The translations under genes were made by a program, and so were the position numbers. The notes beneath the pieces were generated by a model, which had not been told where the DNA came from, made no database searches, and saw only the letters and a program-made list of their open reading frames with translations. Positions 1,538 through 49,794 of a DNA stretch of 64,000 nucleotides are shown in pieces. The stretch spans positions 57,102,001-57,166,000 of the forward strand of contig NC_059434.1 of assembly GCF_021028975.2 (NCBI RefSeq), given 5' to 3'. This DNA is from Sphaerodactylus townsendi. Its lineage: Eukaryota. Within the stretch, counting starts at the first letter, position 1. Each line of letters opens with the position of its first letter.

Positions 1538-1915
1538 GGCCGTTTCTGCATGGCCAGAGGCAGCGGCGTCCCACTGGCTTAAATGAAGCCGGTGGAGCAT
1601 TGGGACTGTTTGCACGATCCTGTGCGGGCAATCCCGATGCTGACGCAGCCCGCAGGGGCAGCTCTGCATGGAGCCGCCCAGGGTGTTTGCGAGGGACTTA
1701 CCTTGCCTTCCTGTGCAGCTCTGGGTGGCTGGACAGACACACCCATGTCAGAGAGCAGCATGGGCGTGTCTTTCCAGCTGCCCGGAGCTGCACAGGAAGG
1801 CAAGGTAAGTCCCTTGCACACACCAGAGGGGCCAAAAGCGGTGCCCTCACAACAGTGCGGTTCGCACTGCGCCAGTGCGAAGACGCCGCTTTTGGAAAAC
1901 CTCGCTCAGGGAAGA
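1538..1915. mobile_element. PIF/Harbinger-type MITE with internal hairpin; right TIR not found
   Basis: Starts GGCCGTTTCTGCA, the same TIR type as 47617 and 20758. Inverted arms at ~1691-1747 and ~1759-1816. Confidence 0.7.
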
Positions 1916-4509
1916 CTGAATTCAGATACCCAATGGCTACCAGACTCTTGCTCTTTTCTAATAATATGTATCAGTTATCCTAGTGTCTTTACACTTGCTG
2001 GCCAGAACACTGGAAAACATTTTCTTGATATTTTTATTTCTTAATAAGATTCAATAATATTTTCTGTAGTGCTTTTTATTCGTTACCTTTAAAAATGAAA
2101 ACAGAAAAGGAGCTCAGAATACCCTTGAGAGGGCCTCTTTTGGCTATGCTTTGCAAACAACAAAAAAGAACTAGTGTCTGTCTACAATACTTGATTTTAT
2201 TTGAATAACAACTGTATGCAGAGATTAAAGCTAGTTTAAAGAAGGCTCATAAAGCTTTATTTTTCATAATAGAATGGATAAATTAGCTAAAGCATCACAG
2301 TGATTTAAACAGAGCCTGTTTCAGTATGACAGAAAATTAAACCCTTGGAAATATTCTGTTCTGCATTTAGGGGAGAGAATAAGCAGTATGGAATTGTGAT
2401 TTCTTCATTTTCCAAGCTGCAAGAAGCAATACATGGTTTCTTTCCCTGTTAAAGTTACTGAGGCATTGCAAATGTTTATGAGTGGGTAATAATGTTGCAG
2501 TGAATGGCTAATGTGTCTCACCTTTTTAAAAGTGTTTAATGACCTGCATACAGAGTCATGAGCCCAGATCAGTGATTTATACCTGTTTGTATAGCACAGC
2601 CATAGCCTAACGTGCAATAAATCAGTGTGAAGTGAAAGGCAGGTGGTTAGACTTGATCTGACTTGCTATACCGTTTTTGGCACCGGGACAGTAAAACAGA
2701 ATAGTCTTTGGGTAAACGAACACACACACACACACATTTGAAATATAGATATGATACAATGAATACTATTATAAATGTATTACTTTCCTGTGGATTCAGA
2801 ATTTAACCTTGCAAGGCAAGGATAGACTGAGAAGTTAAAACATCCCTGGAGAGAAAAGTATCGCAGCAATCTTCTTTAAGCTACACTGCACAACCCAACA
2901 TGGGGTGTCTAAAGCAGCTTATAGTGAGCTTCTACTCAGATTGCAGTCTTGCAGACTACAGTCTTGCATTCAGGATATTTGATGTGGGCGGGATTAAAGT
3001 TGGTCACATGGTAGCCCTTCCTTAATGAAGTCTTTTCTTAGGAGGCTGGCTTGGTGGTGTACAGGCTCTAAGCAGCAGCTCTGGTTCTAACTTACAATTG
3101 GCTTCTTGGCTTGCCATAGTGGTTGCTTCAGCTCATTCAAGAAGAAAAGGGAATTCATAAAATACTCAAGAGACAGTGGTATTATTTCAATCATGATGGA
3201 AGCAGATGCCTATCTTGTGAAGAGTAGGGGCTCCTCAGTCAGGATATGGACCGTCACCATGTGTCAGTGTGGATGTGGTGGCTGCTCTGCTCAGACTTAG
3301 AAACTTGTCAGAGGGGGAAGTACAGTAAAGCTACTGGATAGATTTTACATCTTCCAAGCAGGACACATACTTTCTGTTCAGAGGGCACTTGTACCCTTCC
3401 TCTGCATAAAACTGCAGCTGGAACTGCAAGTAATTAGTGTAAGCTCCCATCCAGGCTTGCTGCAGACGTGTTCAGCACTGCGGAGCAAGTTGAGCCAAAC
3501 TGAGTTAGGATCACTTCAAGATCTACTTTGGCCCCAAGCTATGATGATGACAACAAAGTGAATAGGCTTGCTGGGTGTCGGTACTCTCCAAGGCAGTGGC
3601 TCACTGGCCTCACTGGGAAATTGCCCAAATGTTCAATGGCCAGGCCAGTCAGAGAGAGAGTTAAAAAGAGCAAAAAAATTACATATGAAATGTGCAAGCC
3701 TTTTAAAAAAGTAATGTAGGGCTGTGGAACCATGGCTCAGATATATTAGAAATATTATCTTTGCTTAGTGTGCAGATGGTCCACATTACACCCTAGCATT
3801 TCCACTTTAGGGCCAGAGTGCACAATGTCTACATTGTAGATTAGTGTTTAATTGGTTTTAAAAGGCCAGTTCAGACATATTGTAAATACAAACAAACAAA
3901 TAATAGCAAGAAGTCGAAGTTAGGGCTATAATTGGAGAAAGATAGGTTTCAGCAGCAGCAGGCATCAGGATTGTTGCAGTTTGTGACTTCTTGTGCCAAT
4001 TTGACGATTAAATCATTTCATTTACTGGATAAGGGCCTCCATGGCCTCATGCTCTGCAGGAATTTTAACTCATTCTTTCCTGTATAACCTTTTCTCCAAA
4101 CTTCACATGCCCCCAAGGAAAAAAATTTCAAAGCATCCTCAACTTCTCTGGTGAGGGGTTTGTCATGGGTCATTTCAAATGACCTGGGATTATTATGCCA
4201 GTGAATAAAATGTCATAAATAATTCTGGAAAGGCTAATGCAAAAACTAATTGAAAGACCCAATCAGTATGGATTACAAAAAAACTGCAACTGTTTCTAAT
4301 ATAATATGGATGCTTCAATTTATGTTAGATTGCACACAACAAAATATAGACTCTGAAGTAATCTGACCTTTTTCTAGCATTATGCATGATAATACCATTC
4401 TTCAGAGGGACTTCTCCTGATTTAAAACCCAATTGCAATGGGAATTCCACTTGCCATTTATGATACAACCAGAACTGTTAAAAAAAATTATGCAAACTGA
4501 GAGTAGGTA

Positions 4510-5437
4510 TTCTGAAAGGCTGCTCCACAACAGAAATCAGAAGAGCTTTAAGACCAAGAAAAACCCAGAGGACTGAGGAGAAACAGCCCCCCCCCCAAAA
4601 AAAAATTTCTGCCATACATCAAAGGGAATCACAGATCAAATAGGGAAACTTATGAAAAAACATAATCTACAAACAATCTTCAACCCTACCAGAAAAATAA
4701 AACAGATGCTACGCTCAGCAAAGGACAAGAGAGACCCCTCTCACTTCTGCAGGAGTCTATCACATACCCTGCAGCAGTGGAAAGGTCTACATAGAAACTA
4801 CAAAATGCAGCATTCAGACTCATATTAAAGAGCATGAAAGACACTGTCGGCTTAACCATCCCGAAAAATCTGCAGTAGCAGAACATGCTCTAAACAAAAC
4901 TGGACAAATCATTTATTTTGAAAACACTGAAATTCTGGACAAGTCGGATGGTTACAATGTCAGACTACACAGGGAGGCTATTGAAATCCACAAACACCAA
5001 AACAACTTCAACAAGAAGGAAGAAACTTTGAGAATTTACAAAACTTGTCTACCAATACTTAAAAACACCAGAATCAAAGGCCAAGGGCATGCTAGGTTCA
5101 TGGACAATGAACTCCACCCAGACACAGGATCTGCATTCACTAATACTGCTGCTATTGCAGGGAATGCAAATGTGAATATTAATGTAAATGGACTGAAAAC
5201 CCCACCCACGATACAATGCAGTCAACTACACCTTTGCATAGCAAGTCCCACCTAAATACTTACTGATTGGTTACCACTCTGGGACATGGACAATACATAC
5301 CCCACTAAACATTCCCTTCTCACTGGACACAGTGTGTAACACACTTCCCTCTGTGATACATCTCTGAAGTTGTCAACCACAGATGCAGGCAAAAGTTAGG
5401 AACAAGATCCACACAGCCTGGAAAGCCCACAACAACC
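4510..5437 (+). mobile_element. Penelope-like element 3' part: decayed GIY-YIG endonuclease plus 3' pLTR with degenerate hammerhead
   Basis: Frameshifted translation gives GVYHIPCS..KVYI..IKEHERHCRLNHPEKSAVAEHAL..FENTEILDK..RLHREAIEIHKH.NNFNKKEE. 11-bp TSD GAGAGTAGGTA at 4499-4509 and 5438-5448. Confidence 0.9.
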
Positions 5438-7410: not shown

Positions 7411-7414
7411 AAAT

Positions 7415-8776: not shown

Positions 8777-10865
8777 TTGATTGGTATTTCCCCTCCCAAA
8801 TCCACTGCTCCACTGCAGCTGAGTTCAGGCTTCAGGCAGGTGGTGGTGGCACAATTTCAGTGGTTGCTTTGGGCGCCATTTCTTTGTAGCTACACCCTGA
8901 TCACAGGTCCACACTGGACCCCTGCCTCCAAAGCAGTGTTTTGCTGCATAAAATTCAGCAAAAATAAAAACTTAAAGCAAGGACTACCCAAAGAAGCTTA
9001 AATCTAAATTTAGACAGTGGAGTAGAGAGCAGATAATGGGATTAAACGGTAGAAGGCTGACACAGTAATTGAAGAGAAGAACCTCCAGGCAGTGTCTGCC
9101 AAAAGCATAAAAAGACAAACAGTGTAACAAAGTGCAACCCCTTCTCAATGTAGACTGGAAAAGAATGCTTTCACTAACCGCTCTTTAGACACTTTCCTCA
9201 GCTGCAGCTTTCAAAATTTATCATGTGCCCTTTGACTAAATGTAGGGCCCTCTCCTTGCCTGCATCCCAAGGAGCAATAGGGGTGATTAATATTTTTTCT
9301 CTCACTTTTCTCTTTCCTTTGCACTGGTAATGTAGCCAAGTGAATTCGCTGAGTATCCCAATGGAATTTGCTAGAATCCTTTGTGATTTATGGGCAAACG
9401 TAGAGGTACCCATGAGACACAAAGACTATACCTTTCTTCTTTTCAGTGAGTTCAGTTACCACTTACTGCTAGTCCTCTTTTCTGTCATTTTAAGTCTGCT
9501 TCATCTGCTGATAGGACTGTTTTTTAAAAGGCTATCAAGCAGCTGCTAGTCAGTTTGTGAAACATTTGTGATGTTTGCCAGGCCAGCAGAATAATCCAGG
9601 GGTTGGCTCACCATAGCCACTTTCATTGAGTGAGACAAATTCTCCTGATGAACTCATTCTCAGTGAACATTGCAACATCACTGCTAGAACAGGATTCAGC
9701 ACAACACAACATTTTCGTTTTATATGGATAAAGGAAAATTAAAGTCAAGTGATCACCAGATGTACTACTTTGAGTAATTAGCTCAAAAGGTCACAATTAG
9801 CAAACCTAGAAGGTAACATGATATGACTTTAAAAGAATTATTTATTGGAGAACTGAACACCAGCTGGCCTGAAACTGCTGCTTCTAATGAATATATATGT
9901 TTAAAAATACCCTTCACGTGGATCTTTGATTGGTTGCTGGTAGTGTTCTTCAGGCGAAGATTTATTTTTAACCAAGATAATCCAGAAACAGAAAAACAAC
10001 TTGAAAGGAACTATAGACTTCTGTAAATTTCAAATCTGTTTTATTATCTAAAGTATTTTTGGCATAGTGCTGAAAAATTGTAAACTCTTCAGTGAAACAA
10101 TATGCTGTATTCTTTGTTAGGAGAGAACCAGCTGAAGCTGAAAGGCTGGAAAATTAAGAGTTGGAAGAGGTTTAAGAACACTAAGGAATGGAAGGATGGC
10201 AGAAGGATTTAAGGATGCAGTTCTACAGGGTATGGCAGCTACATATGGAATTATTTCTCCCCAGTGTAACTGGTTCTTGCACAGGACAAGAAAATGTGCA
10301 AAGCTGAGAATAAAGACACACTATTTATTTTTATTCTTTCTTTGAGAGCTAGGTGAAGTGCATGTTTAGTTACAGAAGAAACAGAAACATTATTTTACAT
10401 TCTTTACAATGCTTTCAACATGTGACACATCTAAGAGATGAGCATTTAGCTTTCAAATAATCTTTTTCTTGCATCCAGTGTAATATAATGTGCAAAAAAG
10501 ACAACAGAAAGGATGAAACGGTTGGTAAACTGTAGGTGCTTTTTCAGGAAGGTCATGGTGTTTGGAACTCTTTCGTATAAAAAATATATAGCTAATTCAC
10601 ATGATATTCAAACAGAACTTCATATGACATTCAATCAGAACTTTCCCATTGTTTTTATGGCTCAAGGGCCTACCAGAGACTTCCTATTTGCGACAGAAAA
10701 GAACTGTGGTGATGGGTAGAACTACACTTCTCCCTTCAAAATGGGGTTGTTAACCACCACCACCCCACCTTCAATAGGCTTTTCCCACTTTCCCAACTGA
10801 GGCATGCTATAGCTATAAGACATCTCAGTTAACAGGAAAGGAGATGTTCTGGGTCACATGGGTAT

Positions 10866-11333
10866 CATGGTTTCCGCACATTCAGGCTTGCAGGCTTGCA
10901 TCAGCATGATTGATGCCAATGCAAGCCCTGGGGCCGTTCGCACCAATGGCCCCACAGGCAGCGCAGCTGGCGGAGCACGCTCCGCACAGCCGCACAGCCC
11001 CCCGAACAGCTGCCTACCTTTTCCCTGCATTTCGTCGCTCCGAGGAGGGAAGGGGACACGCTCCCTGGCCAGAGCGATGGCTGAAGCGACAGAGGCAAGG
11101 AGGCGTGTCCCCTTCCCTCCTTGGAGCAATGAAAGGCAGGGAAAAGGTAGGCAGCTGTTCGGGAGCACTATGGGAATACGCCGGCTGCCACCCGCTGCTG
11201 TTCACTCAGCAACAGGTGGCAATCACCGTATTCCAACAAACTCACCCCCCGAGCGAGTTGCAGAAGAACAGTGCCCCAGGGACCGGTTTTTCCCGTCCCT
11301 GTAGCGCTGTTGATTCCCCGTGCGAAAACCGCC
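10866..11333. mobile_element. PIF/Harbinger-type MITE with internal hairpin
   Basis: Ends ..GGTTTCCGCAC and GTGCGAAAACCGCC followed by TTA. Inverted arms at ~11000-11065 and ~11100-11165. Confidence 0.75.
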
Positions 11334-11374
11334 TTAGCATTGGCAACAAAAGGGGAAGGAGTAACAGAAGTAAG

Positions 11375-11622
11375 TGGAAAAGAGATTTATGGAGGAGAGA
11401 TTGATCAGTGGCTGCTAGCCAGGGAGACTAAAAGGAACTTCCACACATTCAGAGGCAGTAAACCCCTGAATGCCAATGCTAGAAGACAACATCAGGAGAA
11501 GACCTCAGCCTCTATGCCCCATTGCTGGAATTCCAGAGGAATTGGTTGGCCACTCTGTGAGACAGGATACTGGACTAGACAGATGATATATCCGATCCAG
11601 AAGGACTCTTCTTATGTTCTTA
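11375..11622 (+). mobile_element. CR1 LINE 3' end
   Basis: ..GGTTGGCCACTCTGTGAGACAGGATACTGGACTAGA..GATCCAG..CTCTTCTTATGTTCTTA matches the typical reptile CR1 3' terminus. Confidence 0.75.
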
Positions 11623-12669
11623 AAGTACATGAATGCTATTCCTACCTGTCTTGACACTTGTTGCAGCTGCCATTCAATCAGTCTAAGGGTGTACATGGTA
11701 GCAATTCATAATATTATGGGTGGTATGGGGGGAAAAGATGCCTTGAGCTAAAATAAGGCATCCTGGGGATGCCTTGGGAAGTAAGCTGTGTGGAATGCCT
11801 TCCCAGGACATCCTTTTCAGTGTCCCCAGGATGTCTTATTTAAGTTGTGCAGCACAGACGGTATGTGTCTAATGCAAGAGGCTAGTGATTATATTGTTCT
11901 AAACTGGTGTTTTATTTATGTGTCTGAACAATTGGGAACTGTCGTACTCTGTGTGAGGGGGAAAATGATATTGCTATAAAGAAAGAATAGAATGAAGAGA
12001 AATGTTTAACTAGATAGATTGACAGACCACAGAATTCTCTAGAGTCTCTTACTGATGATATCATTACATTCCAGTGCTTTGGTCTCAGCAGTAAACTATA
12101 CTGTGTAACATAGGAATGGCGTTGAGAAAACCCATGACAGACAAACTTTTTTAAAAAAAACTAACAGTAAAGCTTCAGGCTTAGCCACCCATTTGCAACA
12201 AGAGCTTTTATCATTAATAACATCACTACTGGCAAATTAAAGTGGATTTGGGGGTGGAATGGAAAGAATTGTTTCACTATTGTGCAGTAATTCATCAATT
12301 TAACATTCTTGATACCTTTGGTAGGAATATCCACATTTTTTTTGATCCTATGCAGTTTGAAAAAAGGGAAGAGGGAATATGATGACCAATATTTATTCTG
12401 TTATGCGATTTTATAGTATCTAACTGCATCTGTTATTTTAATTGATGAACATAGGCTGTATGATGTTTTGGGAACTGATAATTTGTAGTTTTAGCTAGAT
12501 GGTACTAATGCACAGAAGCTATCTGAGCTTAACTTTGACAGCACATCAGATAAATATTAGCTATGGATCCATCAAACCAGCAGTTAAGAAGTAGCTTTTA
12601 CACTTCTTAAACACAAATTCATTTTGGAACCTGAATTTTTGACACAGATGGTGACACAAGTGTTAATAA

Positions 12670-14000
12670 TAAATTTATTTGCTGTCATTGACTAGTATTA
12701 TCAAAACATTAAAATACAATAAAACAAGGGCAATAAAATAACAAATATTAAATACAATAATATAATAAACAACATCAATAAAACATCTCATATCTCTTCT
12801 ATTTAGAGGATCCTGAAAGCCTTTTGCAAAAGAACCAAGCAAACTTGGTCACATTTAGAGAGTCCTCTCTTCAATTACAGCAGTGGCATGGGGGGGGGGA
12901 GGAATGGCGCTGGGGGCAAAATGGCACCCAGCACCCCCGTGATCCTTGCACCCCTCGTGTTCCCCACCACTTACCTTAGTTCAGCCAAATTCAAAGATCA
13001 GCCAGCTGAAAAAGATACCTGGTTAGAACTACACTTTCAGGAGACCCTGTGAGCCCCAACACCTGCAGAGGCCTCCCTGTGTGTGTGTGTGTGTGTGGGG
13101 GTGCTCGCAAGGTTTCCTGGGAAGTGAAGTTCCCACCCAGTCTGCTTTTTCAGCTGACTGCTCTTTGCAGCCAGCTGAACTAAGATAAGTGGGGGTGGGG
13201 GCATGGGGGGGTGGAACTATACTTCCCAGAAGACCTTGCAAGCCCCAATTCCTGCAGAGGCCTCCCTGAGGGTGGGTGCGAGGGGGCCTTTGTGGTTTCC
13301 ACTCCTGCCGCACCAGCAGGCAGCTCCGGGCTGCCGAGCCTGATGGGGCGTGGCAAGGGAAAGGGGGAGGGGTGTGGGGGTGATTTTTCACTCCACGTGA
13401 TCCCAATGGTGCATGCCAGGGGTGCAGTGCCCGTCCACCCTGTTGCAGCTACGCGACTGAGTTCCAGCTGTTAGAAAAGAAATAATGGTGTTCCTATCTC
13501 TACCCGGGTATTTACACAAAATTGAATTAATCAAAAGATCCTGTTCCTTCCTCATATTATTACAATCAAAAATAAGATGTTCTAGTGTTTCAGGAGAACC
13601 ATCATGGCAAGAACAGAGGCAATCTTCTTCTAGGCTCTTATTACATTTTCCAAGCAGTGTCTTTGTCAGAAGAACGTTATGTCTCATCAGCATAAAACTT
13701 TTCCTCAGGTTGGAATTATCCAATTGGCTTACATATGTTACCAGTTTTAAATCATTCAGAGTATTAGAATAAAAAAGAAATGATTTAATTCTATTTTTAT
13801 AATGGCTTCTTTCTACATTCAATATTCTTTAACTAATATTTTAGCCGGATTATAATCCATGACTGCCAGAGATTCACTGGAGAACCCATAGGATTTTAGC
13901 TTTAGTTCCACCCTTTCATGCCTGGGTGAAATAAATTAATCTTTACAAATGCCATGTATTAGGCCCTTGTTGAGATTTTGAGAGATGGTGATACAAATGT
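12670..14000 (-). mobile_element. Non-LTR LINE 3' remnant (RTE-X-like), interrupted by a hAT MITE
   Basis: ORF 13388-13822(-) reads LRKSFMLMRHNVL..LLGK..CLCSCHDGSPETLEHLIFDC, a C-terminal zinc-knuckle-like motif. It continues beyond the MITE to an AT-rich tail. Clade uncertain. Confidence 0.6.
12881..13459. mobile_element. hAT non-autonomous element (MITE)
   Basis: Ends CAGTGGC.. and ..GCTACGCGACTG. Degenerate 8-bp TSD AATTACAG / AGTTCCAG. Internal inverted arms. Confidence 0.7.
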
Positions 14001-14211
14001 TGATAAAAAGAATGACTTCTCATACCACAGAGCAATTCTTCAGACACCTCATGCAAAAATTCACTAAGCCATTTGAAAGTGTTGTTAAAAATAATATTCT
14101 CTTGGGTTTTAAACCATACATGCTCGGTGTCAATGTTACCGTTTGAATTATGATATGCTAAGGTTAAAAGCAATTTATTGTTCTTTCACAACCAGTTCTT
14201 TCAATGTACTA

Positions 14212-14560
14212 CAGTGGAACCTCGGTTTTCATTGACTTTGGTTTTCATCGATTTTTTTCATTGCCTCGGTTTTCATCGATTTGCAGGAGTTTGTGGAGAA
14301 AAATCACCAGGACAAAGCTGTTGAAGGCCGTGTCTGCAACTTGTTTAATGACAATGTCTTGCCCCATTCAGACAAATCCTAAAGAGGCGTCAGAAACTGG
14401 ACAGCTTTCTGGTGCGACATTGGTTCACTGGCTCTGAAGCTGGTCCTAGTGTTATTGTTTGTTACTGTTTTCAGCATTAAACACTATGTTTATTTACCAA
14501 AAAATGTGTTTTTGGTACGTTTTTTGGAATGCCTGGAACGGATCAATTGGATTTACATTA
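14212..14560. mobile_element. TcMar/Tigger-like non-autonomous fragment
   Basis: TA then CAGTGGAACCTCGGTTTT, repeated subterminal GGTTTTCAT motifs, and internal CTGGAACGGATCAATTGGATTTACATT. Confidence 0.6.
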
Positions 14561-20757: not shown

Positions 20758-21050
20758 GGCCCTTTCCGCATGGGCCATAAACGGTGCCGTTCGCACAGGC
20801 GGTGCTGCGAAAATGCGCTGCGAAAATGGAGGTCGGAGGGCAGCATGGGCGGGTCTTAGGAGGCCAGCAGGGCGACGAAGGCGACGAGGTGAGTGGGAGA
20901 GGGATGGGGAAGAGATGGCTCCGTGCGGAGCCGCCTCTCCCGCACTGGCCTCTGCAGGGGCCGCTCGCACGCTCCGGTGCGAATGCCCCCCCTCCACAGG
21001 CAGAATTCCTGCCGGTGGGGGAGCGCCCTTTCCGCAGTGCGGAAAGGGCC
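20758..21050. mobile_element. PIF/Harbinger MITE
   Basis: Perfect 13-bp TIR GGCCCTTTCCGCA and TTA TSD on both sides; CpG-rich. Confidence 0.9.
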
Positions 21051-21560: not shown

Positions 21561-21587
21561 ACATTTATTTATTTTATATATATATAT

Positions 21588-21589
<2 letters not shown>

Positions 21590-21638
<49 letters not shown>
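21590..21638. repeat. (AC)n microsatellite
   Basis: Direct reading. Confidence 0.95.
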
Positions 21639-25552: not shown

Positions 25553-26014
25553 AGCGGATTCCGCACGGGGCAAAAACAGTGCCCCAGGGACAGTAAAAAC
25601 AGCATCCCTGGGGTGCTGTTCGCACGGCTGCTGCCTCCACAAATTCCCCCCACACTGGGGTGGAAAATTCTACCAGCAGCATGCAAATGGCACAGGGTTG
25701 GAGGCGCCATTTCCCCCCACACTTACCTTCTCTCCCTGTGAAGCTCCACAGAGATGGGGAAGCATGCCCACGCTGCTGTTTGACCCCCGCGTGTAGGAGG
25801 GAAGCATGGCATGCCTCCCTGTTCCTGTGGAGCTCCGCAGGGAGAGATGGTAAATGTGGGGAAACAAAACAGAGGCACCTCCGTGCGGAGGCACTTCCGC
25901 AGGCTAAAGTCACTCTGGGGCCGCTCGTATCTCAGTGTGTGAACAGCGCCAGGGCTTCACTGGCATCATATATGCCGGTGGGAATCCACTGTAGTAGCTC
26001 GTGTGGAATCCACC
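25553..26014. mobile_element. PIF/Harbinger-type MITE with internal hairpin
   Basis: Ends AGCGGATTCCGCAC and GTGTGGAATCCACC. Inverted arms at ~25710-25770 and ~25805-25865. Confidence 0.75.
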
Positions 26015-36900: not shown

Positions 36901-37099
36901 CTTGGACTGTTCGAGCATGCATGCTGCATCTACATTGTAAAAACAAAAAAAGAGGGGCTCGTGTGAAAGAAATTGGAGTATTCCCTCCCAGACTTCATTC
37001 AATTCCTTCACAGAAATGGACAGCCATGCAAAGGGAGAAACCAGGATAAAATAAAATGTTTCCAGCAACAGTTCTTCCAGGTTTTTTTTAATTTCTGGG

Positions 37100-38680
37100 A
37101 GGTATCTCCCCAAAAGTGCTTAGCAACTGTCACCCAATGTCCAGCATCCTATTTTTGGATAAGGTCCTGGAGTGGGTGGTGGCACACCTGGATGATGATT
37201 TTCTGGACCCATGTCAGTTGGGTTTCAGGCATGGCCATAGTACTGTCTTGGGAGAGAGAGACAGGGGCTGCATATCCCTGTTGGTTCTCCTTGATCTATT
37301 AGCAGCGTTTAATACTGTCAACCACAGTATCCTCCTGAACTGGCTGCGGGGGCTGGGAGTGGAAGGCACCATATTACGGTGGTTGTCTTCTATCTCAGTG
37401 GCAGGCTCCAGAAGGCAGGAGTGGAGGACAACTGCTTGGGAGCATGGGAGCTCAATTATGTGGTTCCCCAGGGCTCAGTGCTGTTCCCTATGTTGACCAA
37501 CATCCACTTGAAACCACTGAAAGAGTTCATAAGAGGGTTGGGGTGAGTTGTCACCAGTATGCTGATGACACGTAGCTTTAGTTCTTGGTTCCATCTGCAT
37601 CAGATGGGGAGTTGTCAGTTCTGGACCAATATCTGGAGGCTGTAATAGGCTGGATCAGGGCACATCAATTGAAATTGAATCCTGACAAGATGGAGGTGTT
37701 GTGTGTGCTGGGTCCAAGATCCAGGAGATCAAGGGGGCACTTGACACCAAATGGTGTGGTTTTATCCAAGGGTGCAGGACCTGAGGGTTATTCTTGATTC
37801 CTCATTGTCACTGGAATCCCATGTGGCAGTAATGGTGAGGAGGACCTACCAGGCTCTCCAGCTGGTTTGCCAGATCTGCCTTTACTTGGACTGGAGCGAT
37901 CTGAACACAGTCACTATGGAATGGTAACCTCATGGTTAATATATTTTAACATGCTCTGTGTGGGGTTGTCCTTGAAGATGGTCTGGGAGCTGCTGCAGAA
38001 TGCAGCAGTTCAACTGTTAGTGGATATTCCAGGACGTCATCACATAACACTTGTCTTGAGGGAACTGCACTGGCTCCCTATTCAAGGTACTGGTACTGAC
38101 CTACAAAGCCCTATGCAATCTGAAGGAATGCTTTCTGTCATATAGACCTGTCCAGGTGCTAAGGTCAGTCCGGGCCGGGGCGGGGGTCCTTGGAGCTCCA
38201 TTGCCTTCCTAGGTTCAGGGGATGAGGGTCACCCAGAGGGTCTTTTCTGCAGTGGCCCAGGCACTTTGAAATACTCTCCCCCCAGAGGTTTGCCAAGTGC
38301 CAACTCTGAAAGTTTAGGTGCCTGACCAAGACTCTATACCCGGACATATGGTAATCCCATCTGGGCAGTGCCCCTTTACACTCCTCCATTACACTCAACT
38401 ATACCAGCTCCCAATTAGTTCATTCCCAGTCCAATTTCTGAAATGTGTTGGGGGGAATTATGGGGGGTGGATGATTATATATATTTTAGAAGGGGGTTAG
38501 GTTAGGGGTGGGGATGGTTTTTAAAGGAGTTTTTTGATGGTTTTATGATTATTTTATGGCGTTTTTAGGATTGTACTCCACCCAGGGAATTTGCTGATGG
38601 GCAGGATATAAATGCAGAGTCAGTCAGTCAGTCAGTCAGTCAGTCAGTCAGTCAGTCAGTCAGTCAATAAATAAATAAAT
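37100..38680 (+). mobile_element. L2 LINE: decayed RT domain to 3' tail
   Basis: DPCQLGFRHGHST..LLVLLDLLAAFNTVNHSILL..PQGSVL..CHQYADDT..LKLNPDKME..LQNAA..HHITLVLRELHWLPI. Ends in (AGTC)n(AATA)n. Confidence 0.9.
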
Positions 38681-40253: not shown

Positions 40254-40316
40254 ATCACACCAGCCACAGATGCAGGCGAAATACCAGCCACAGATGCCAG
40301 CCACAGATGCAGCCAC

Positions 40317-42754
40317 TAGGGTTGGAGATTCGGACAGTCCAAATCCGAATTTTTACCGAATCTGCACGGATTCGGACGGATTCGGATGAGCAGGAGCCGA
40401 ATCTGAGCTGTCCGAATCCTAACAGATCCGAATCCATGGGATTCGGATTACCAGCCGAATTGCGTTTTTATTTTTTGGTGTTTTTTTCACATTTTGGCCT
40501 GCAGGGGAGACATTTTTAAACATATCAGCACCAACTTTTCAGGATATCATCAGGAGACTGTCCTGATGATACCCTCCAAGTTTGGTGCATTTTGGTTTAG
40601 GGGGGGCAAAGTTATGGACCCCCAAATGTGGTGTCCCTATCCCCCATTCTTTCCAATGGGAACTAAGGAGATGAGGGCTACCCTTTTCAGGGTCCATAAC
40701 TTTGGCCCCCCTGAACCAAACTGCACCAAACTTGGAGGGTATCATCAGGACAGTCTCCTGATGATACACTGAAATATTGGTACCGATACATCTACAAATG
40801 CATTACCTGCAGGCACCCCCCAGAAATTTGCACAAGATTCTTTTGTTCTGCAGTGACTTTAGCTGCATTGCTGTCAATAGGGAATTTCTGAGGGGGCTGT
40901 GGAGTGCACTTTACCCATTTTCATGGTAAACCCACAAAACTTTCAGGAGTCTCTTTCAGGAGAGTCTCTGATGATGACACCATCGGGTTTGGGGAACTTT
41001 ACTTCAGGTGGAAGTGGGAGATGGGCCCTACCCCTTTGGGTCCCATAGAATTAAACCCCCTGAAGCAAAATTCCCAAACCTGGATGGTGATCATCCAGAG
41101 ACTCCTCCTGAAGATACCCTTGAACATTTTGTGACTATATCCTTGATACAAAAGTGAAATTCCCACATTGACAGAAATACAGCTAAGTCACTTGCAGAAC
41201 AAAGAATCTTGGAAGGCAGGTGCCTGCCGGGGACGCATTTTGAGATGTATCGGCACGCAAATTATCAGAGTATCATCAGGTGACTGTCCTGATGTTTGCG
41301 CCAACAAGTTTGGTGCAGTTTGGTTCAGGTGCATGGACCCTGCGAAAGTGCATCTATCCCCATTGTTGTTTCCAATGGGAGCTGATAGTGAGAGTCCATA
41401 ACTTTAGTTTCCCCTGAACCAAACTGCACCAAATCTCTTTCAGGGGTATCATCAGGACAGTCTGATGTTACCCCGCGAAAAGTTTGGTGTCACTTAGCTT
41501 TAAAAATGCTGGAGTTTGTGTGTTTTCACCGCTCCCTCACTCCAGGAGGCTTCTTGTGCAGGAGCGGTGAAACATGAAAAGCGCTGGAATTTTTAAGCCT
41601 ATGATGGCAACCAAATTTCAGGGTCCATCATCAGGAGACTGTCCTGATGACACCCCCAAGTTTGGTGCAGTTTGGTTCAGGGGCCAAAGTTATGGACCCT
41701 CAAAGGCCTCTATCCCCATTGTTTCCAATGACAGCTAAGGAGATGGTGGCTACCATTTTGAGGGTCCGCGCTTTGGCCCCCCTAAACCAAATCTGCACCA
41801 AGCGTGACAGTCTCCTGGTGACAATACCCTGATCATGTGCCCCTACGTTCTTTTTTTTCTGCAGTGACTTCTGACATTGCTGTCAATAGTGGAATTTTCT
41901 GGTGGGAAGGGCTGTGTGAATTGCACATTTATCAAGGTACAAAGTCATCAAAATGTTCAGGAATTATCTTCAGGAGAATGCTGACTGACACCACATCCAG
42001 GTTTGAGGAACTTTGCTTATGGGGGGGCAGTGGGAGATGGACCCTACCCATAACATTTGAACCCCTTGAAGCAACGGTCACCAAACCTGGATGGTGTCAT
42101 GAAGAGACTCTCCTGCAGAAGACACCCTGAAAGTTTTGTTGGGTTTACCATGAGAAATGCACTCCACAGCCCCCTCCCACAGAAATTTCCTATTAATGTA
42201 ATGGAGCCAGCCACAGCCACTACAGAGCACAGAATCTGGGAAATTTCTTTAGTGGTGACTGTGAGGGGTGCAGTTTTAGAGCTTACTGTCACCAAAATTT
42301 CCGGGTATCATAAAATGTAACTGTCCCTATGATACTCCCCAAGTTTGAGAGTGAAGTTTTCTGTCTCAGGGGTCCAAACGTTATGGACCTTCAAAAGTGT
42401 AGCCCCGCTCTCCTCAAAGTTAGCTTCCACCGTGGAAACAATGGGGGATGGTGTCAATAACTTTGCCCCCCCTGAATTAAAACTGCACCAAACTTAGGGA
42501 GAATCACTCAGATGATATCCTGAAATTTTGGGTGCCGCTGGCTTTACAAATTTCGTCCCCTGCAGGCCAACAACGTGTAAAAACACCCAAAATTCAAAAA
42601 TAATAATAAAACGGACCCGAATTTTTCGGATTTACCCGAATTTTCGGGTATATCCGAATTGGCTATGATTCGGATTCGGGCATACAAATCATTTTATGCC
42701 CCAAAATACCCAAATCCGAATTTTACCGAATTTTTTTAGTATTGACCAACCCTA
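40317..42754. mobile_element. Non-autonomous hAT DNA transposon (2.4 kb)
   Basis: TIR TAGGGTTGG / CCAACCCTA. Perfect 8-bp TSD GCAGCCAC at 40309-40316 and 42755-42762. Subterminal CCGAAT/ATTCGG arrays. No transposase ORF. Confidence 0.9.
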
Positions 42755-45700
42755 GCAGCCACAGATGCCAGCCACAGATGCCAGCCACAGATGCAGGTGA
42801 AACGTCAGGAGAGAATGCTGCTAGAACACGGCCATACAGCCCGGAAACCACACAGCACCCAAGTGATTCCGGCCGTGAAAGCCTTCGACAATACATTACA
42901 TGTCTATTTGTGTTTTTTTGTATTTTTAGTGTTTTTTTGTTTTTTGCCTGCAAGGAGGTGCAGTTTTTAGGCTAGCAGCACCAAAATTTCAGGGATTGTT
43001 TGGGAGACTCTCCTGATGATACCACCCAGGTTTGGTGAGGTTTGGTTCAGGGGGTCAAAAGTTATGGACTCCCAAAAGGGGTGCCACCATCCCCCATTGT
43101 TTCCAATAGAAGGGCACTTATATGATGGATACTAAATCCATTGTAAAAGAAGTAGATTTTTTGTGAAAATATTCAGCTTCAAAATCCCTTAATGACTTAT
43201 CAGAAATGTTTTAATAAGATTTGTACTGTTATATATATAACAGTACAAATCTAATTGTACTATTGTACAATTGTACAATTCTAATTGTACAAAAATCTAG
43301 CTAGCATTTTACCTTAACATTTTATTTGTGAGCCAGGGAAAATAAGTTAAGTTTCATAATAAATCAAATATATTTTGAAATCTTTCGACCCCAAATAGAA
43401 GACAATTTAGCTGATAACATTTCCTCTTGATTTCTACAAATGTATCACCAGCTTTTTCATCATTTTAACTTGTGGTAAAAGCTTAATGGAGCAATAAGTG
43501 AATGGTCTTATATCTTCAAACACTATTTAGTTCATAGCAAAATATATATGAAATATAAAATGATGACTTCATTTACTAAAATCAGCAAATGTTAAAATTT
43601 CAAGGTATATAAGAGGATAAAAGAGATACAATTTTTTATTTGATTCCAAGACAATTTGGTGAGAAGAAAAATCTGAATAATGCTCAGGAAGAGAAGGGAG
43701 TATCCCCCAAGCAAATTTCTGGGGAGAAAGCCTACACAGTCAATAAATAGGTGATAATTAACAGAAATGCAACTGACTAGAAAAAGCAGGAGGTCATAAG
43801 AAAAGCAAGTCACAAACTAGTAAAATTTAACTAGGAACAGCATTGGTTAATTTTTTATTAACCCTGATTAGGTTAGAATAGACTCTGAGAGATAGCAAAG
43901 TACCTCTTTCCTTTAAATTCTCTACTTTTTCTATGTTTGAGAACAATTTGATGACAGCAGGAATTTAACTGATGGCCAATGTATTTGTGATGATATGAGA
44001 CAGAATTATCAGTAAGCAATTTTATGAGCTGTTGCATTTGGTATTCAGAATTCTGGACTAGAGCCAGGGACTTTGGTTCAGATCCCAAATGAACCTTGAA
44101 GATCACAGAATGAACTTGTGAATTTAAAACTGACCTTCTTGAAAGATAGCCATACTAAACACTTAACGTGTATAGGTCATGCTAGATGTTTCAGTAACTC
44201 TATGGAAAAGAAAATGAGTCTGAACTGACAGCTCATTTTCAGTCTACCCTCCATAAAACTGTTGGTTTGTATGAAGAATCTCTTGTATTAATCTGTGAAG
44301 CTATATAGACAATTAAAATGAGCATGAAAGATAGGAAGCTATGGGTGGTATATCCACATTCCAATCCTGGATGCCTGTTCTGTGGGGATTATTTCTTAAA
44401 GCATCTATGGCCTTGTACCCTTCTGGAATCCCTCTCCACCTCAGGCTCTATCTCTAAATCTCTATAAGTTTCCCAAACTGGATCTGGCAACAATACCTTT
44501 CCACCCTGCACCAGTTGCTGCAGCCTTTTAAAAAGATCCAAGCGGTTGCTTTTATGCGTGTCAGGGAAGGCATGTTTGCAAAACATGTCCATGGCTTAGG
44601 CTCAGCATAATTCTGTGAGATTTCATACGAAGCAGATGGCATACAGTTTGGCTCTTTCCATTCTATTTTGCCAGCCATTGTGTCAGCTGGAGGTTAGCAG
44701 GAAGTTGCTTGAGCTTTGCAAATGTGAGGAGGATAAAGGTTCTCCAGGAACTGGAGGGAAGCTCAGCAAAGAACCATACTGAAATATGCTCCAATTAATT
44801 GTCTTCTCGGGAGAAAGTATGGTTAAATGGAGGAAGGAACAATACTACAGTTATTTTCTTTTCTGTCCCAACTGCAGGTGGTGGCAAAGTGGGATATAAA
44901 TATCTAAACAAATAAGATGTGAACGGTCTATAAGTTAAATATTTACCCAGTGTTTGCTGCTCATCTTTGTTCACCAGGGCAGCTCTCTAGCCAGTATAAT
45001 CAGTGTTGGTCTTCAAAGTTAGTGGAGCTGTGCTGCTAATATGGGCCAGGTGTGAGTATGAACCAGTCTTTCAGGCTATAGACTGTGGACACCACATCTT
45101 CTGTTGGCATGCACGATTTGGCTGTCATGCACCTGAAGGCATCCAGTTTATGCACACATTTCTTGCATGTTCCACAGCCTCATTGTTTTGAAAAGGCAGT
45201 CCCTTAATAGGTTATAGACCATAGTTTTGATATGCTAAGTGCAATGTGTTCTTTGCAGAACAAAATTCTTTTCATTGGAGCATGAAGTGAACATTGGAAA
45301 CAACCTCTGTCATTTCCATGTTTATGAAATAAAACAAAGGGGAAACATGCTGTTTTCTTGTTACTATTGGGATCTGTTCGCTTTTGGTTTGATTCATCTT
45401 TCAGCATGAGAATTCAACATTGTTTTCAGTTTGTGTTTCCCAAACCATATTAATGAAGTGCTAAAAATAAAAATGTAGGTTTGTTTTGTTTCAGAAGCAT
45501 CAAGGCTTTTTTCTTTTTTATTTGAGTGATTTAGCATATTGGTCTGGAAGGGCTATAATCAAATAGAAAGTCTGCTTGAAAAATACATAGCCCTTGATTT
45601 TCTGAAACTCTCCCTTCCTCCTTGTAGCTATTTATATATGAGAAAACTAATGCTGAGGGATTAGCATGCAACAAATTAATGAAGCTACAGCTCATGCTTA

Positions 45701-46039
45701 AATGGATGGATTGTATGTATTTCAATTTGAGTACTGCGGGTACACTTTATAGATGCATCTGTAACTTGCTTCTTGTATCAAAACCCAGGAATGGTTTGTT
45801 TTAGAAAATGAAAAAAAAACCCCACATGTTCATGGTGAAAGGACCTTACTCTAATACAATGTTAAAAGTCAAATGTGGAAATATTGGGAAATGCCCCAAG
45901 AAATCCTAATCTGACCAACCATCAGGTACATAGAAGAGAACCTGGGTTTATCATTTTATCAGGAATTCTATCATTGCAATACAAACCCGTACTAGTCCCA
46001 ATGATCGTAATGAAATATACTCCACAAAATCAGCCCCTT

Positions 46040-46568
46040 CACATGACCGGAGAGTCTGGTGAGGGAGGCGGAAGTCTGATGAGCACGGAACCTCGTCAGA
46101 CTTCGCACTCCCTTGGCTCCACCCCCGCGCATCCCTGCTGCCGGGCCGAGGGAGAGGGGAGGAGGCTGCAGCAGCCTGTGATGAACTCAGGACCTGGCAG
46201 GCTCTGATCCCGGTGCAGGCTGCAGTTGGGCTTGCCCTCTACATCTTTATTGGAGGCCCCGTGGGGTCCCTGAAGGAGGTGGGGAGGGGGCGGCTGCAGC
46301 CTGAGGCCAGCTTGGATCCAGCCAGGATATGAGCTGGGCACAGGCTGCAGCCGGCTGCTGGGCTGGGAAGAGAGGCAGCTGTTGGCTCCCCTTCTCTCCC
46401 AGTCAGGATGCCAGAGAAACTGATGCCCCGGCTGCCGAGCTGGGAAGAGGGACTGTAGCCTGACTCGTGAGTAAGCAGTGCTTACTCATGAGTAAGTGGT
46501 GCTCCACGGAGGGGGCTCCCAGAGGGGTTTTTGCCTCCTGGCACCATTTGGCCCCCCGTACGCCTCTG
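46040..46568. mobile_element. GC-rich hAT MITE fragment
   Basis: Right end ..GTACGCCTCTG resembles the hAT MITE TIRs at 19166 and 49794; left TIR not found. Confidence 0.5.
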
Positions 46569-46952
46569 TTCCATGATATGTTTTGGTCCAAACATTCAAA
46601 GGAATAAAGTAGCCAAATCATGAAGTGCTGTAATTCTGCACTACAATGCAGATAAAGGATCCCATTTGATAATGCTCCCTTACAATGAAACTGCCCATAA
46701 TTGGAAAGCCAACACAGCAAGTATGGGAGAGTAGGCCTCTTTATGCATGCAGTAATTACCTTGTGGCTGTTTGCTTTGCAGTGAGTTTTTCCCACTTTTT
46801 CTGTTCTAACTGAGAAATTCTCCTGCTACAAAGTATCCCCAGCTGATCCAATCTTCCATTTTGCCAGAACTTCCTTGTTCTATCTGTGCAACATCCAGCT
46901 GAGGAGGTTGTCCGCCTTTTTTTTTGGAGGGGTCTAGCACAGTGGTCTAGCA

Positions 46953-47138
46953 CAGTGGTTCTCAAGCTTCCTAATGCCGTGACCCTTTAATACAGTTCCT
47001 CATGTTGTGGTGATCCCCAACCCTAACATTTATCCATTTTACATATGGAGAACACTGATGCAGAGAGTCTTAGGCGACCCCTGTGAAAGGGTTGTTCAAC
47101 CCCTAAAGGGGTTGCGACCTCCAGGTTGAGAACCACTG
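46953..47138. mobile_element. SPIN-type hAT MITE
   Basis: TIR CAGTGGTTCTCAA, SPIN-like body CTTCCTAATGCCGTGACCCTTTAATACAGTTCCTCATGTTGTGGTGA..GGCGACCCCTGTGAAAGGG, and 8-bp TSD GTCTAGCA. Confidence 0.85.
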
Positions 47139-47616
47139 GTCTAGCATTAATTTGCTATACTGTGTAAGTTTTAGGTCAGTTTCAAGGGTATATTGCTTGC
47201 TCCATATGAAAATAAACAGCCCTTTTGATCCTTCTGGTGCCCAGAAAAGTGGGAGGAACTGTTGCTGTGTGAGTGGGGTAGGAATGAGAAAACTCGAAGT
47301 GAAACACATGTTGATTATCTTCATTCTCCCTGTGAAGGGAGAGGAAAAGTCATACTTTCAGAGAATTCAGAAACTGTGGAGGTTCTTTGATCCGAGGCAA
47401 TATGAGTTCAGGTGGAAACATGTGCATATCTGAGAATCCAACCAAAAGGGAATGAACACTCAATATGAAGGAAATCATAATTGCATAAATGGCTTGCATT
47501 CCTTCCTGCTGAACTAGTTTTCTGTTTGCATAGAATTTTTAAATAAAGGAATTTAAATCTGGAATCCACCATTTCCATTCTCAAGTGGTGCTGTTGTATC
47601 ATTGTTCTGCCACTTA

Positions 47617-48333
47617 GGCCGTTTCCGCACGGATTGAAAAGCGAGCGACGCTAATGACGCCAAATGTAGCCAGTAACGCGCGATTCCGCCGGTGCCGCTT
47701 AATGCACAGACAGGCGGAGCTGCGCGCGGCCGCGGTTCCCAGTTCTCTGCTCAGAATGTGACGGTTTGGTAACGGAAGCGCTGCTGAAGAGGCTGTCTCG
47801 CCATCGCTCCGCTACAGGCTGCGCGACCCCGAGAAGCAGCCGCCGATTGGCTGACGGATCGCTCCCTGGATGGCCTGGCCGCCCTAATCTGTCGTCATTG
47901 CCTCCTCCTTAGTTACTGCAAAGTCAGTCCCAAGTTCATGTTACCTGTGAGATCAGAGTGTGTATGGGCAGCCACCATCTGCACAGGCGACATGGATCTG
48001 GGAAAGGTGCTTGACCATGCAGGGAAATCACCAGGGACAAACGTGTGTGTGTGTGGGGGGGACGGTGACCAAGCTTGGCCTTTTGGCAGTCGCCATTGTT
48101 GAGAACGGCTCCGTGGCAGCAGTTCGCACGACTGCGGCATCAGTGCGTCACATGTGGAAAAAGAGTGCTTCAAGCTTTTTTTTTTGAATATGGCTGCCTT
48201 ATTGCCGCATTAAGCTGCTACGACGGGCGCCGACTGGCGCACTTCTCTGCCGCTTATGCGTGCAGTAAACGCCTCATTTGATGTTTCTTTTCCCGTTTCT
48301 ACAACGTCATATTTCGCCCGTTCGGAAATGGCC
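47617..48333. mobile_element. CpG-rich PIF/Harbinger non-autonomous element
   Basis: Ends GGCCGTTTCCG and CGGAAATGGCC, flanked by TTA and TTG. Confidence 0.8.
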
Positions 48334-48399
48334 TTGGAAAAAATTGATGTCAATATTTTTCATAACCTACAGGTTTAATGTCTGATTATTTTTGTTAGT

Positions 48400-48570
48400 A
48401 GTTGCATAGATGACTCCAAATGATGACACACCTGGCTGCCCAACTGTTTCCAGGCATAGTTCAAAATTCTGGTTCTTATAAGTAAAGCCCTATGTAACTT
48501 GAGACTTGGGTACTTGAAGGACTGCCTCATTCCATATTGTCCAGCCCACTAACTGAGAACTTAAGAGGAA
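48400..48570 (+). mobile_element. L2 fragment
   Basis: CACCTGGCTGCCC..TTCAAAATTCTGGTTCTTAT..AAAGCCCTA resembles the L2 ORF2 C-terminus near 38070-38120. Confidence 0.5.
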
Positions 48571-49434
48571 TGTTGAGTTCAAAGATTTCTGAAATAATGA
48601 GGACTGTTTAGCTCACCTTCCCGACATGAGTAGCACCTCCCCATCACCTGTTGATATCCTTCTAATAAGTGAAAAAGGTAAATTTTCACAGTGAAAAAAA
48701 CAGTTTCAAAATAGTCCCCTGCTTGGGCTCATCCCTAAATTGGGTGGTGGCGGGACATATCATCAAACTTTTTTTTAAAAAAATGAATAACTAAGGAATA
48801 ATGCAAAATAAAATCATGTTCCTTTTCCAGACCTCAAACTATCATGTAGCCACTGTGAATATACATGTTTGTAACTGGATATTGAGACTGACATATATAA
48901 CTGATGTTATGGATGAGGTGATGAAAGCAACAAAGACCACAAGCAAATCAAGACCCCATCAAAACAGTTGTAGAATGCAAACTCAACACAGCCGTTGTTC
49001 ACAAGCTCTTGATGCTGATGCTTAGCTTAGTGAAGCAGAAGCACGTATTATAACTAACGGCAGAGTAACATCTGTTGCTAGTCTCATTATTAAACTAACC
49101 GAAATATTGCCCCGATGTGATGGTCTGCTGAAGATATAAACACACAAGTTTCAGAAAAAGATCACTTACATACTATTCAGCTTCTGAAGTGCTCACACAC
49201 TTTTAAAAAATGCCCAGAAGGAACTCTTCTATCAAATAATTGATAATTCTCATGAAAGACAATGCCAATTACCAATGACCTTTCTACTGTAGCATACTTT
49301 GTCAGCATTTCTGTTTTTTAAAAAGACATTTTGTTCAATCCATTACATACCCAGTTGGTTTCCTTTGATAGAATCAGAAAAACTGATATTGACAATAGTC
49401 AGTATAAAGACATTGCAGTATAAGGACTGCAATG

Positions 49435-49794
49435 CAGAGGTGGAACTATCAGGGGACCAGGGGTGTGCATTGCACCAACTGCACGTCTGGGAGGTGGAAA
49501 ATTGCCCCCTGTGGCGCCCCCTCTGCGGCACCCCCCCATACACTTACCTTCATGAAACAGTGCAAACTGGAGAAGCGGCCTGTTCCCTTCAGGCTAAAAA
49601 CAGCCTAGTGGGAATTACACTTCCCAGTAGACCTTGCGAGCCCCAGGGTCTTATGGGAAGTATAATTCCCACCAGGCCGTTTTCAGCCTAAAGGCAACAG
49701 GCCACTTCTCCAGCCTGCACTAAGGTAAGGGGGGCAAGGCACGGGGGGGGACACAGAGTGTCACCGGGCTCACTCTGATCCAGCTACGCCTTTG
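49435..49794. mobile_element. hAT MITE with internal hairpin
   Basis: Ends CAGAGGTGGAACT and AGCTACGCCTTTG. Perfect 8-bp TSD CTGCAATG at 49427-49434 and 49795-49802. Inverted arms across ~49560-49720. Confidence 0.9.

What the first reader, a model, noticed from the sequence alone, without database searches (positions are those of the whole stretch)
1696..49730. MITE hairpins of two superfamilies closed by a U1-like ACTTACCTT / AAGGTAAG splice-donor pair
Seen: the base of the internal hairpin carries the same motif pair in five elements. The pairs are ACTTACCTT 1696 / AAGGTAAGT 1802, GCCTACCTT 11012 / AAGGTAGGC 11144, ACTTACCTT 12969 / AAGATAAGT 13182, ACTTACCTT 25721 / ATGGTAAAT 25847, and ACTTACCTT 49542 / AAGGTAAGG 49722. 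These elements have Harbinger-type or hAT-type termini and largely different arm sequences. Established: AG|GTAAGT is the 5' splice-site consensus and ACUUACCU is the 5' end of U1 snRNA. Inference: in either orientation a transcript carries a strong donor together with its own U1-mimicking antisense mask. This could be a convergent strategy for U1 recruitment, escape from silencing, or harmless intronic residence. I cannot tell whether it has been described.
Basis: partly seen in the sequence, partly recalled or inferred. Interest (0 to 1): 0.7.

Follow-up and report, generated by a model that had tools for sequence, protein, structure and literature searches.

The report
Mini-transposon hairpins with outward splice donors
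Five small jumping-DNA elements of two different types carry a splice-donor look-alike on both arms of an internal hairpin, facing outward from promoter-like DNA; the signal is inherited within each type and is likely a leftover gene start copied head-to-head, which base-pairing is predicted to hide in most RNA that reads through the element.

Summary
All five motif pairs are at the stated places. They are not five independent cases. Three are homologous Harbinger-type (PHIS) MITEs and two are homologous hAT MITEs. The 'U1 mimic' is simply the other hairpin arm; it leaves the genome's own U1 after ACTTACCT. Donors face outward: 1062 outward against 11 inward pairs genome-wide, mostly from one lineage. 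The centre holds a ZNF143/ACTACA motif (hAT) or a GC-box-like motif (Harbinger). Folding predicts masking in read-through RNA for four of five families, and open donors in RNA starting at the centre. Across Harbinger sub-families the donor changes most where real donors vary (rho -0.72 to -0.87), but a motif-blind conservation test was null (p=0.34). Inserted copies decay neutrally. The largest hairpin families lack the motif. Best reading: a head-to-head promoter, first exon and donor module, inherited in two lineages; use is untested. The scan noted similar promoter-plus-donor Harbinger MITEs in shark-like genomes.

The parts
1538..1912 (.). E1, Harbinger-type (PHIS) MITE, 3'-truncated (386 of 536 consensus nt)
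   Evidence: 88% to family consensus
1682..1824 (.). E1 main hairpin; donors AAG|GTAAGT at 1802-1810 (+) and 1704-1696 (-); GC-box-like GGGCGTGTC at 1762-1770
10866..11333 (.). E2, Harbinger-type MITE with an internal deletion after 11266
   Evidence: 92% to consensus
11001..11163 (.). E2 main hairpin; donors AAG|GTAGGC at 11144-11152 (+) and 11020-11012 (-)
12881..13459 (.). E3, hAT-type MITE, full length
   Evidence: 8-bp TSD in 12 of 20 family copies with both ends
12964..13195 (.). E3 main hairpin; donor AAG|GTAAGT on - at 12977-12969; + donor decayed to AAG|ATAAGT at 13182-13190; ACTAYRNNNCCCR on both arms of the consensus, and an intact third copy at 13216-13228 in the window
25553..26014 (.). 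E4, Harbinger-type MITE, homologous to E1 in the opposite orientation
25715..25861 (.). E4 main hairpin; donor AAG|GTAAGT on - at 25729-25721; + donor decayed to ATG|GTAAAT at 25847-25855
49435..49794 (.). E5, hAT-type MITE with a perfect 8-bp TSD (CTGCAATG)
49542..49730 (.). E5 hairpin; donors at 49550-49542 (-) and 49722-49730 (+), out of register by a bulge; ACTACA/SBS-type motifs with one mismatch at 49614-49626 (+) and 49654-49666 (-)
20758..21050 (.). Sixth Harbinger-lineage copy, internally deleted, keeping one arm with GAG|GTGAGT

Best explanation
These are non-autonomous Harbinger-type and hAT-type DNA transposons (MITEs) whose central hairpin carries two outward-facing splice-donor sequences around a promoter-like core, likely because a gene start (promoter motif, short GC-rich first exon, 5' splice donor, G-rich intron start) was duplicated head-to-head once in each lineage and then inherited. 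Shown: the termini, the TSDs, two lineages, the outward orientation, the motifs in the core, neutral decay after insertion. Predicted: RNA that reads through a whole element folds the donor into the stem, so U1 cannot pair (E1-E4), whereas RNA that starts in the hairpin centre lacks the antisense arm and leaves the donor open. Inferred and only weakly supported: the donor consensus was kept by selection on the transposing progenitors while sub-families diverged, for example because transcription or chromatin opening from the core helped mobilisation. Unknown: whether the module came from the parent transposon's own promoter or from a host gene.
For: Outward bias: 1062 against 11 pairs at spacing 95-125 and 157 against 48 at spacing 60-90. 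Retrieval by hairpin interior with the motif removed from the seeds: 32 of 50 Harbinger arms carry an outward donor of at least 7 bits against 2 of 50 inward; 17 of 22 against 0 of 22 for hAT. ACTAYRNNNCCCR lies on both arms inside the donor pair of the E3 and E5 consensi; PMC3082894 (passages seen) ties ACTACAN plus SBS to bidirectional promoter activity. A GC-box-like motif (label recalled) lies inside the pair in E1, E2 and E4; consensi are 65-69% GC with CpG o/e 0.38-0.93; 16-25 of the 25 nt after the donor are G in the hAT families. Opening energy is 22-26 kcal/mol in read-through RNA (E1-E4 consensi) against 0.6-8.6 from the centre. All 13 sub-family representatives keep GT and a purine at +3 while the arm before the donor is 49% identical at the median. 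Changes per donor position fall as the position's information rises: rho -0.72, p=0.017 (motif-blind alignment) and -0.87, p=0.002 (hand-anchored); post-insertion decay shows no such trend (rho +0.62). The acceptor side is not kept across sub-families (read by eye), which fits a first exon.
Against: The motif-blind conservation test was null: core donor columns had 5, 6, 6, 6, 3 changes against a median of 6 in 33 other non-CpG columns, p=0.34. The significant version (p=0.007) used hand anchoring that required GT and +3 purine and dropped 4 of 50 arms. Without positions +1 to +3 the blind correlation is p=0.069. One sub-family has lost the donor region on one arm (L198, L240, L244, L260), another has AT for GT on one arm (L174, L287), and one has a weak GTACAG. 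The outward counts come mostly from one amplified lineage; the tool's reversed control was 133 beside 157. The four largest hairpin clusters of the sample (60, 45, 27, 26 copies) have an outward donor in 1, 1, 2 and 0 copies, and one cluster has an inward one in 5 of 5. No chance control was run for the promoter motifs. E1 has no G-rich run after the donor (6-7 of 25 nt). No parent element was found: 1 of 152 Harbinger transposase matches was read and it has no similarity to E1-E5 at E<=0.1.
Confidence: 0.5

Rival explanations
1. Neutral passenger: a donor-like 9-mer happened to lie in the ancestral fold-back of each lineage and was copied along; it never worked as a donor in the MITEs.
For: Null motif-blind conservation test; neutral decay, GT 38 of 520 against stem 536 of 6965, p=0.80, and G+1 26 of 259 against G/C background 397 of 4232, p=0.74; one-armed losses in two sub-families; absent from the most abundant hairpin families; only two lineages.
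Against: Sub-family changes follow the donor's information profile; two lineages with no other similarity (best E=0.059 with donors masked) both have a near-optimal donor facing outward from a promoter-type motif.
Confidence: 0.25
2. One reading: a convergent U1-mimicking mask, or U1 recruitment in read-through RNA, to escape silencing or to be tolerated in introns.
For: Masking is predicted for E1-E4; two lineages are unrelated outside the motif; the motif equals U1 nucleotides 3-10 of this genome.
Against: The antisense arm follows from palindromy; masking excludes U1 pairing in the same RNA; E5 is weakly masked; an element with no donor would be just as harmless; no host selection on copies; the model gives no reason for the outward bias.
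Confidence: 0.1
3. The motif is a DNA-binding site (Myb/SANT partner, transposase or host factor) arranged as an inverted pair, and only resembles a donor.
For: It sits in DNA palindromes beside other DNA-type motifs; MITEs need no RNA stage (established knowledge); an internal region conserved across MITE families is known from CMITEs (PMC2872659, abstract seen).
Against: The same motif occurs in two superfamilies with unrelated proteins; tolerated variants (A/G at +3, free -3 and +6) match the donor consensus.
Confidence: 0.1
4. The hairpin is a symmetric cassette exon: the left arm reads as branch point, pyrimidine tract and AG, the right arm as donor, on either strand.
For: A blind exon scan of the window ranked the E1 hairpin first on both strands among 34 candidates (1719-1804 +, 1702-1787 -); E4 also scored; many hAT copies read ACTTACCTTAG.
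Against: The AG is missing or distant in several Harbinger sub-families (by eye); both sites would be base-paired in read-through RNA (one search tested the donor only); the scan used my own rough acceptor score.
Confidence: 0.05

Closest known systems
Non-autonomous PHIS (PIF/Harbinger, NuwaII) elements; PMC4482050 (passages seen)
   Same: Short, non-coding, TIRs starting with G, 3-bp TSD; 26 of 36 exact TSDs have the C...G flanks described for NuwaII
   Different: The TSD is TNA in only 10 of 36 and TWA in 5 of 36; the passages seen describe no donor-bearing hairpin
Non-autonomous hAT elements
   Same: 8-bp TSD and CAG...CTG termini (the class criteria are established knowledge, and PMC4482050 gives 5-8 bp TSDs for hAT)
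   Different: Internal palindrome with ACTACA/SBS motif and outward donors; some relatives are arrays of such hairpins joined by G-rich/C-rich linkers
Palindromic Xenopus MITEs Harbinger-N12A_XT and Kolobok-N2_XT; PMC12676858 (passages seen)
   Same: Vertebrate MITEs with internal palindromes; regulatory activity reported
   Different: Described as liver enhancers; 'splice' occurs once, in methods, and 'hairpin' and 'ZNF143' do not occur
Multicopy Pack-TIRs, e.g. Pack-hAT-N8_XT; PMC8277862 (passages seen)
   Same: A TIR element can carry a GC-rich 5' part of a host gene
   Different: Those have a traced host source and few copies; here no source is traced, the module is palindromic, and the estimate is about 34,000 copies (26 in 1.4 Mb)
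CMITEs of Acropora; PMC2872659 (abstract seen)
   Same: Internal region conserved across MITE families
   Different: piggyBac-related; the abstract names no donor or promoter motif
SOS splicing; PMC12779559 (abstract seen)
   Same: RNA pairing of a DNA transposon's inverted repeats limits harm to transcripts
   Different: Spliceosome-independent, triggered by terminal repeats, excises the element; here the pairing is internal and would only hide a donor

Membership tests
PHIS/Harbinger MITE (E1, E2, E4) | Terminal inverted repeats, no coding capacity, many dispersed copies | tested here: met
   Consensi of 532-541 nt with GGC..TTC(C/T)GCAC ends; 1105-2635 first-look candidates, 40 scored each
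PHIS/Harbinger MITE (E1, E2, E4) | 3-bp target-site duplication | tested here: met
   11 of 22, 16 of 27 and 8 of 14 exact
PIF/Harbinger group in the strict sense | TWA target (recalled) | tested here: not met
   TWA in 5 of 36 exact TSDs
NuwaII group | C|TNA|G target | tested here: inconclusive
   C...G flanks in 26 of 36, TNA in 10 of 36
PHIS/Harbinger MITE (E1, E2, E4) | Autonomous partner with the same TIRs | tested here: inconclusive
   152 DDE_Tnp_4 matches in the genome; the 1 read has different ends
hAT MITE (E3, E5) | 8-bp TSD and short TIR starting CAG | tested here: met
   12 of 20 and 20 of 28
hAT MITE (E3, E5) | Autonomous partner with the same TIRs | not tested
   No hAT transposase search was run
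U1-derived sequence | Similarity to U1 beyond its 5' end | tested here: not met
   U1 continues GGCAGG after ACTTACCT, the elements do not; no Rfam match in the window at gathering score
Functional 5' splice site | Match to the donor consensus | tested here: met
   8.5-12.7 bits for intact window arms with a recalled frequency matrix
Functional 5' splice site | Junction reads at the GT | not testable with these tools
   Needs RNA reads of this species
Bidirectional promoter | Promoter-type motifs between divergent donors | tested here: inconclusive
   Motifs present, no chance control
Bidirectional promoter | Transcription starts in both directions | not testable with these tools
   Needs CAGE or reporters
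Pack-TIR | Internal sequence traced to a single-copy host gene | tested here: inconclusive
   The best own-genome matches aligned were family copies; only 40 candidates were scored per search

The most novel reading that the evidence does not exclude
Two unrelated DNA-transposon superfamilies independently evolved MITEs that are portable two-way gene starts with a built-in lock. A palindromic promoter core fires outward into U1-bound donors, which keeps the element transcribed and open for transposase, while the same palindrome hides the donors from host transcripts that read through. Tens of thousands of copies would then be latent first exons.
Probability: 0.18. Interest if true: 0.75.

Novelty: new variant of a known kind. 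Interest (0 to 1): 0.42.

Why it matters
What makes some MITEs far more successful than their parents is an open question, and conserved internal regions are unexplained. A head-to-head promoter and donor core that is open only to self-initiated RNA is a concrete design that can be tested with two point mutations. It would also supply many potential alternative first exons in this lineage. If neutral, it is a caution: palindromic repeats create perfect 'U1 mimic plus donor' pairs by geometry, and can top exon predictions on both strands.

Tried and rejected
RNA evidence: no RNA holder listed; this says nothing on expression. Three of the four listed runs were laid on 9500-14500; their flat depth looks like DNA, and contigs of the second organism run into E2 and E3, so those insertions are shared; no splicing information. 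U1 origin rejected. Five independent origins rejected. General enrichment across hairpin repeats rejected: 298 hairpins in 87 clusters; of the 20 multi-member clusters, 4 have outward and 2 have inward donors in at least half of the members. Host purging or retention of donors not seen. Host gene context: 30 candidate frames gave one reverse-transcriptase fragment (37092-37493) and one weak RING hit below cut-off (35482-35562), so intronic against intergenic stays open. Parent element: 1 of 152 transposase loci read, not the parent; the others were not read. Literature: searches listed no paper whose title or abstract start describes donor-closed MITE hairpins; I saw only listings there, the library lacks most subscription papers, Repbase and Dfam annotations were not available, and no supplements were read.
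Full report
Observation. The five pairs are exactly as reported and lie in or beside hairpins with 82-90% complementary arms. I name them E1 (1696/1802), E2 (11012/11144), E3 (12969/13182), E4 (25721/25847) and E5 (49542/49722). Each was searched in the own genome (1.81 Gb); 40 of 1105-2918 first-look candidates were scored and the best 30 loci fetched, the window copy included. The consensi restore perfect pairs where the window copies of E3 and E4 have decayed.

What the elements are. E1, E2 and E4 have GGC..TTC(C/T)GCAC termini and 3-bp TSDs (11 of 22, 16 of 27, 8 of 14 copies with both ends). E3 and E5 have CAG termini and 8-bp TSDs (12 of 20, 20 of 28). Of 36 exact 3-bp TSDs, 26 have C...G flanks, 10 are TNA and 5 TWA: PHIS superfamily, nearer the NuwaII target C|TNA|G of PMC4482050 (passages) than strict Harbinger. 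Earlier notes of the scan call the genome a gecko; I did not test that.

Independence. E1 and E4 align over 525 columns at 70%, in opposite orientation. E1 and E2 share a 3' arm, and E2's hairpin aligns with the other Harbinger arms. E3 and E5 share their hairpin (69-75%). Between the lineages the only match was 18 nt that include the motif (E=0.004); with donors masked the best is E=0.059. So there are two lineages. Whether they converged or exchanged a short module cannot be told.

U1. The genome's U1 begins ATACTTACCTGGCAGG. The five elements continue with T after the shared part and show no further likeness. The antisense copy is the partner arm of the donor.

Orientation. Both donors point away from the hairpin centre. 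Exact-pattern counts are 1062 outward against 11 inward at spacing 95-125 (tool controls 17 and 52) and 157 against 48 at 60-90 (controls 133 and 98). Many of the 48 have G-rich then C-rich interiors, as in the linkers between consecutive hairpins of larger hAT elements. To avoid circularity I retrieved relatives with hairpin interiors stripped of the motif. This gave 39 Harbinger hits (27 with a hairpin, 2 dropped as other hairpins) and 16 hAT hits (13 with a hairpin, 2 dropped). Outward donors of at least 7 bits (recalled matrix) were found in 32 of 50 and 17 of 22 arms, inward ones in 2 and 0. These sets include the five window copies and one hAT copy first found by pattern. They are related sequences, not independent trials.

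Generality. In 140 evenly spread 10-kb stretches, 298 hairpins fell into 87 clusters; the four largest essentially lack the motif, and paired CTTACC occurred in 4 of 361 raw hairpins. The two lineages gave 26 hairpins in 1.4 Mb, about 34,000 genome-wide. The feature belongs to these lineages and not to hairpin MITEs at large.

Constraint. Results are mixed. With a motif-blind alignment of 50 arms, the core donor columns were no more conserved than 33 other non-CpG columns (p=0.34); that alignment visibly misplaces a few donors and includes four arms that lack the region. With hand anchoring on 46 arms they were (p=0.007; internal branches p=0.026; all nine columns p=0.34), and GT was intact in 41 of 46; this is a best case and partly circular. 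Changes per position ran opposite to donor information in both alignments (rho -0.72, p=0.017; -0.87, p=0.002; without +1 to +3, p=0.069 and 0.011). After insertion the donors decay like the stem: GT 38 of 520 against 536 of 6965 (p=0.80), G+1 10.0% against 9.4% for stem G/C. The whole 9-mer was slightly better kept (5.5% against 7.7%, p=0.0002); by base class this traces to positions -2, -1 and +4, not to GT.

Anatomy of the core. ACTAYRNNNCCCR lies on both arms inside the donor pair of the E3 and E5 consensi. PMC3082894 (passages) reports this motif with the ZNF143 site in bidirectional promoters and shows two-way activity of such a fragment. E1, E2 and E4 have GACACGCCC-type motifs there (GC-box label recalled; the pattern allowed decayed forms; no chance control). 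The 15 nt before the donor are purine-rich in the Harbinger families (10-13 of 15) and the 25 nt after are G-rich in hAT (16-25 of 25). The complement of the purine run reads as a pyrimidine tract, and a blind exon scan ranked E1 first on both strands, but the AG is not kept across sub-families.

Predicted behaviour. With ViennaRNA, opening the donor in read-through RNA costs 22-26 kcal/mol for the E1-E4 consensi, above the 9-12.5 gained from U1. From the centre it costs 0.6-8.6. E5 is the exception, at 11.7 and 3.4 in read-through RNA. These are equilibrium figures; co-transcriptional U1 binding could differ.

Source. The genome has 152 Harbinger transposase matches, many with open frames. 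The one locus read belongs to another family. It has GC boxes and ATTGG motifs upstream of its transposase frame, an antisense donor-like site at 681 and GGTGAG at 1001, but no similarity to E1-E5. The parent is not identified.

Comparison. Closest are non-autonomous PHIS and hAT elements, palindromic Xenopus MITEs (PMC12676858, passages), multicopy Pack-TIRs (PMC8277862, passages), CMITEs (PMC2872659, abstract) and SOS splicing (PMC12779559, abstract). PMC9179366 (passages) confirms two transcribed genes in Harbingers but says nothing on their orientation or promoter. Searches listed no description of this architecture; supplements and repeat databases were not seen. I wrote down the promoter-and-donor reading before the first look-up. 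Earlier AI notes report promoter-plus-donor Harbinger MITEs in shark-like genomes, and an ACTACA-bearing, end-swapping hAT core and DIRS-end donors in this genome; they are leads, not support.

Verdict. The pattern is real, inherited in two lineages and directional. It is best read as a duplicated gene start whose donors are predicted to be hidden from read-through RNA. Function is unshown and the evidence for selection is suggestive only. New variant of a known kind; interest 0.42.

Noticed in passing
window 1702-1804: The E1 hairpin reads as an 86-nt exon with acceptor and donor on both strands and tops a blind exon scan of the window
   Followed up: partly
L158, L162, L164: Larger hAT-type elements built of several donor-closed hairpins joined by G-rich then C-rich linkers, each linker end starting with a donor on its own strand
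   Followed up: partly
L234:6908-7282: Long inverted ends with TACTTACC...GGTAAGTA facing outward; looks DIRS-like (label recalled); a third element type with outward donors
   Followed up: no
G000:C1:34456745-34456866 and C2:88021308-88021402: Another family with an outward pair and unlike arms, holding GCAATTCCCAG
   Followed up: no
G000:C14:32635065, C10:84474638, C3:14144650 and others: AT-rich repeat family with several AGGTAAGT/ACTTACCT sites in both orientations
   Followed up: no
L159, L161: Copies with the donor duplicated in tandem on one or both arms
   Followed up: no
window 47617-48273: CpG-rich Harbinger-TIR element without the hairpin, with GATTGG and one antisense CAG|GTAACA
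   Followed up: no
window 40465-43107: Array of palindromic modules of about 195 bp, with many inverted repeats
   Followed up: no
window 50740-51903: Near-identical local repeats of about 330-400 bp, with TAG|GTAAGT at 51393 and 51725
   Followed up: no
L307:629-1613: Harbinger transposase locus with GC boxes and ATTGG motifs upstream, flanked by outward donor-like sites
   Followed up: partly
L224:4965-5343 (cluster 0): The commonest hairpin family of the sample (60 copies) carries ACTACAATTCCCA on its arms but has no donors
   Followed up: no
window 35482-35562: Candidate exon with a weak RING-finger hit below cut-off (E=0.007)
   Followed up: no
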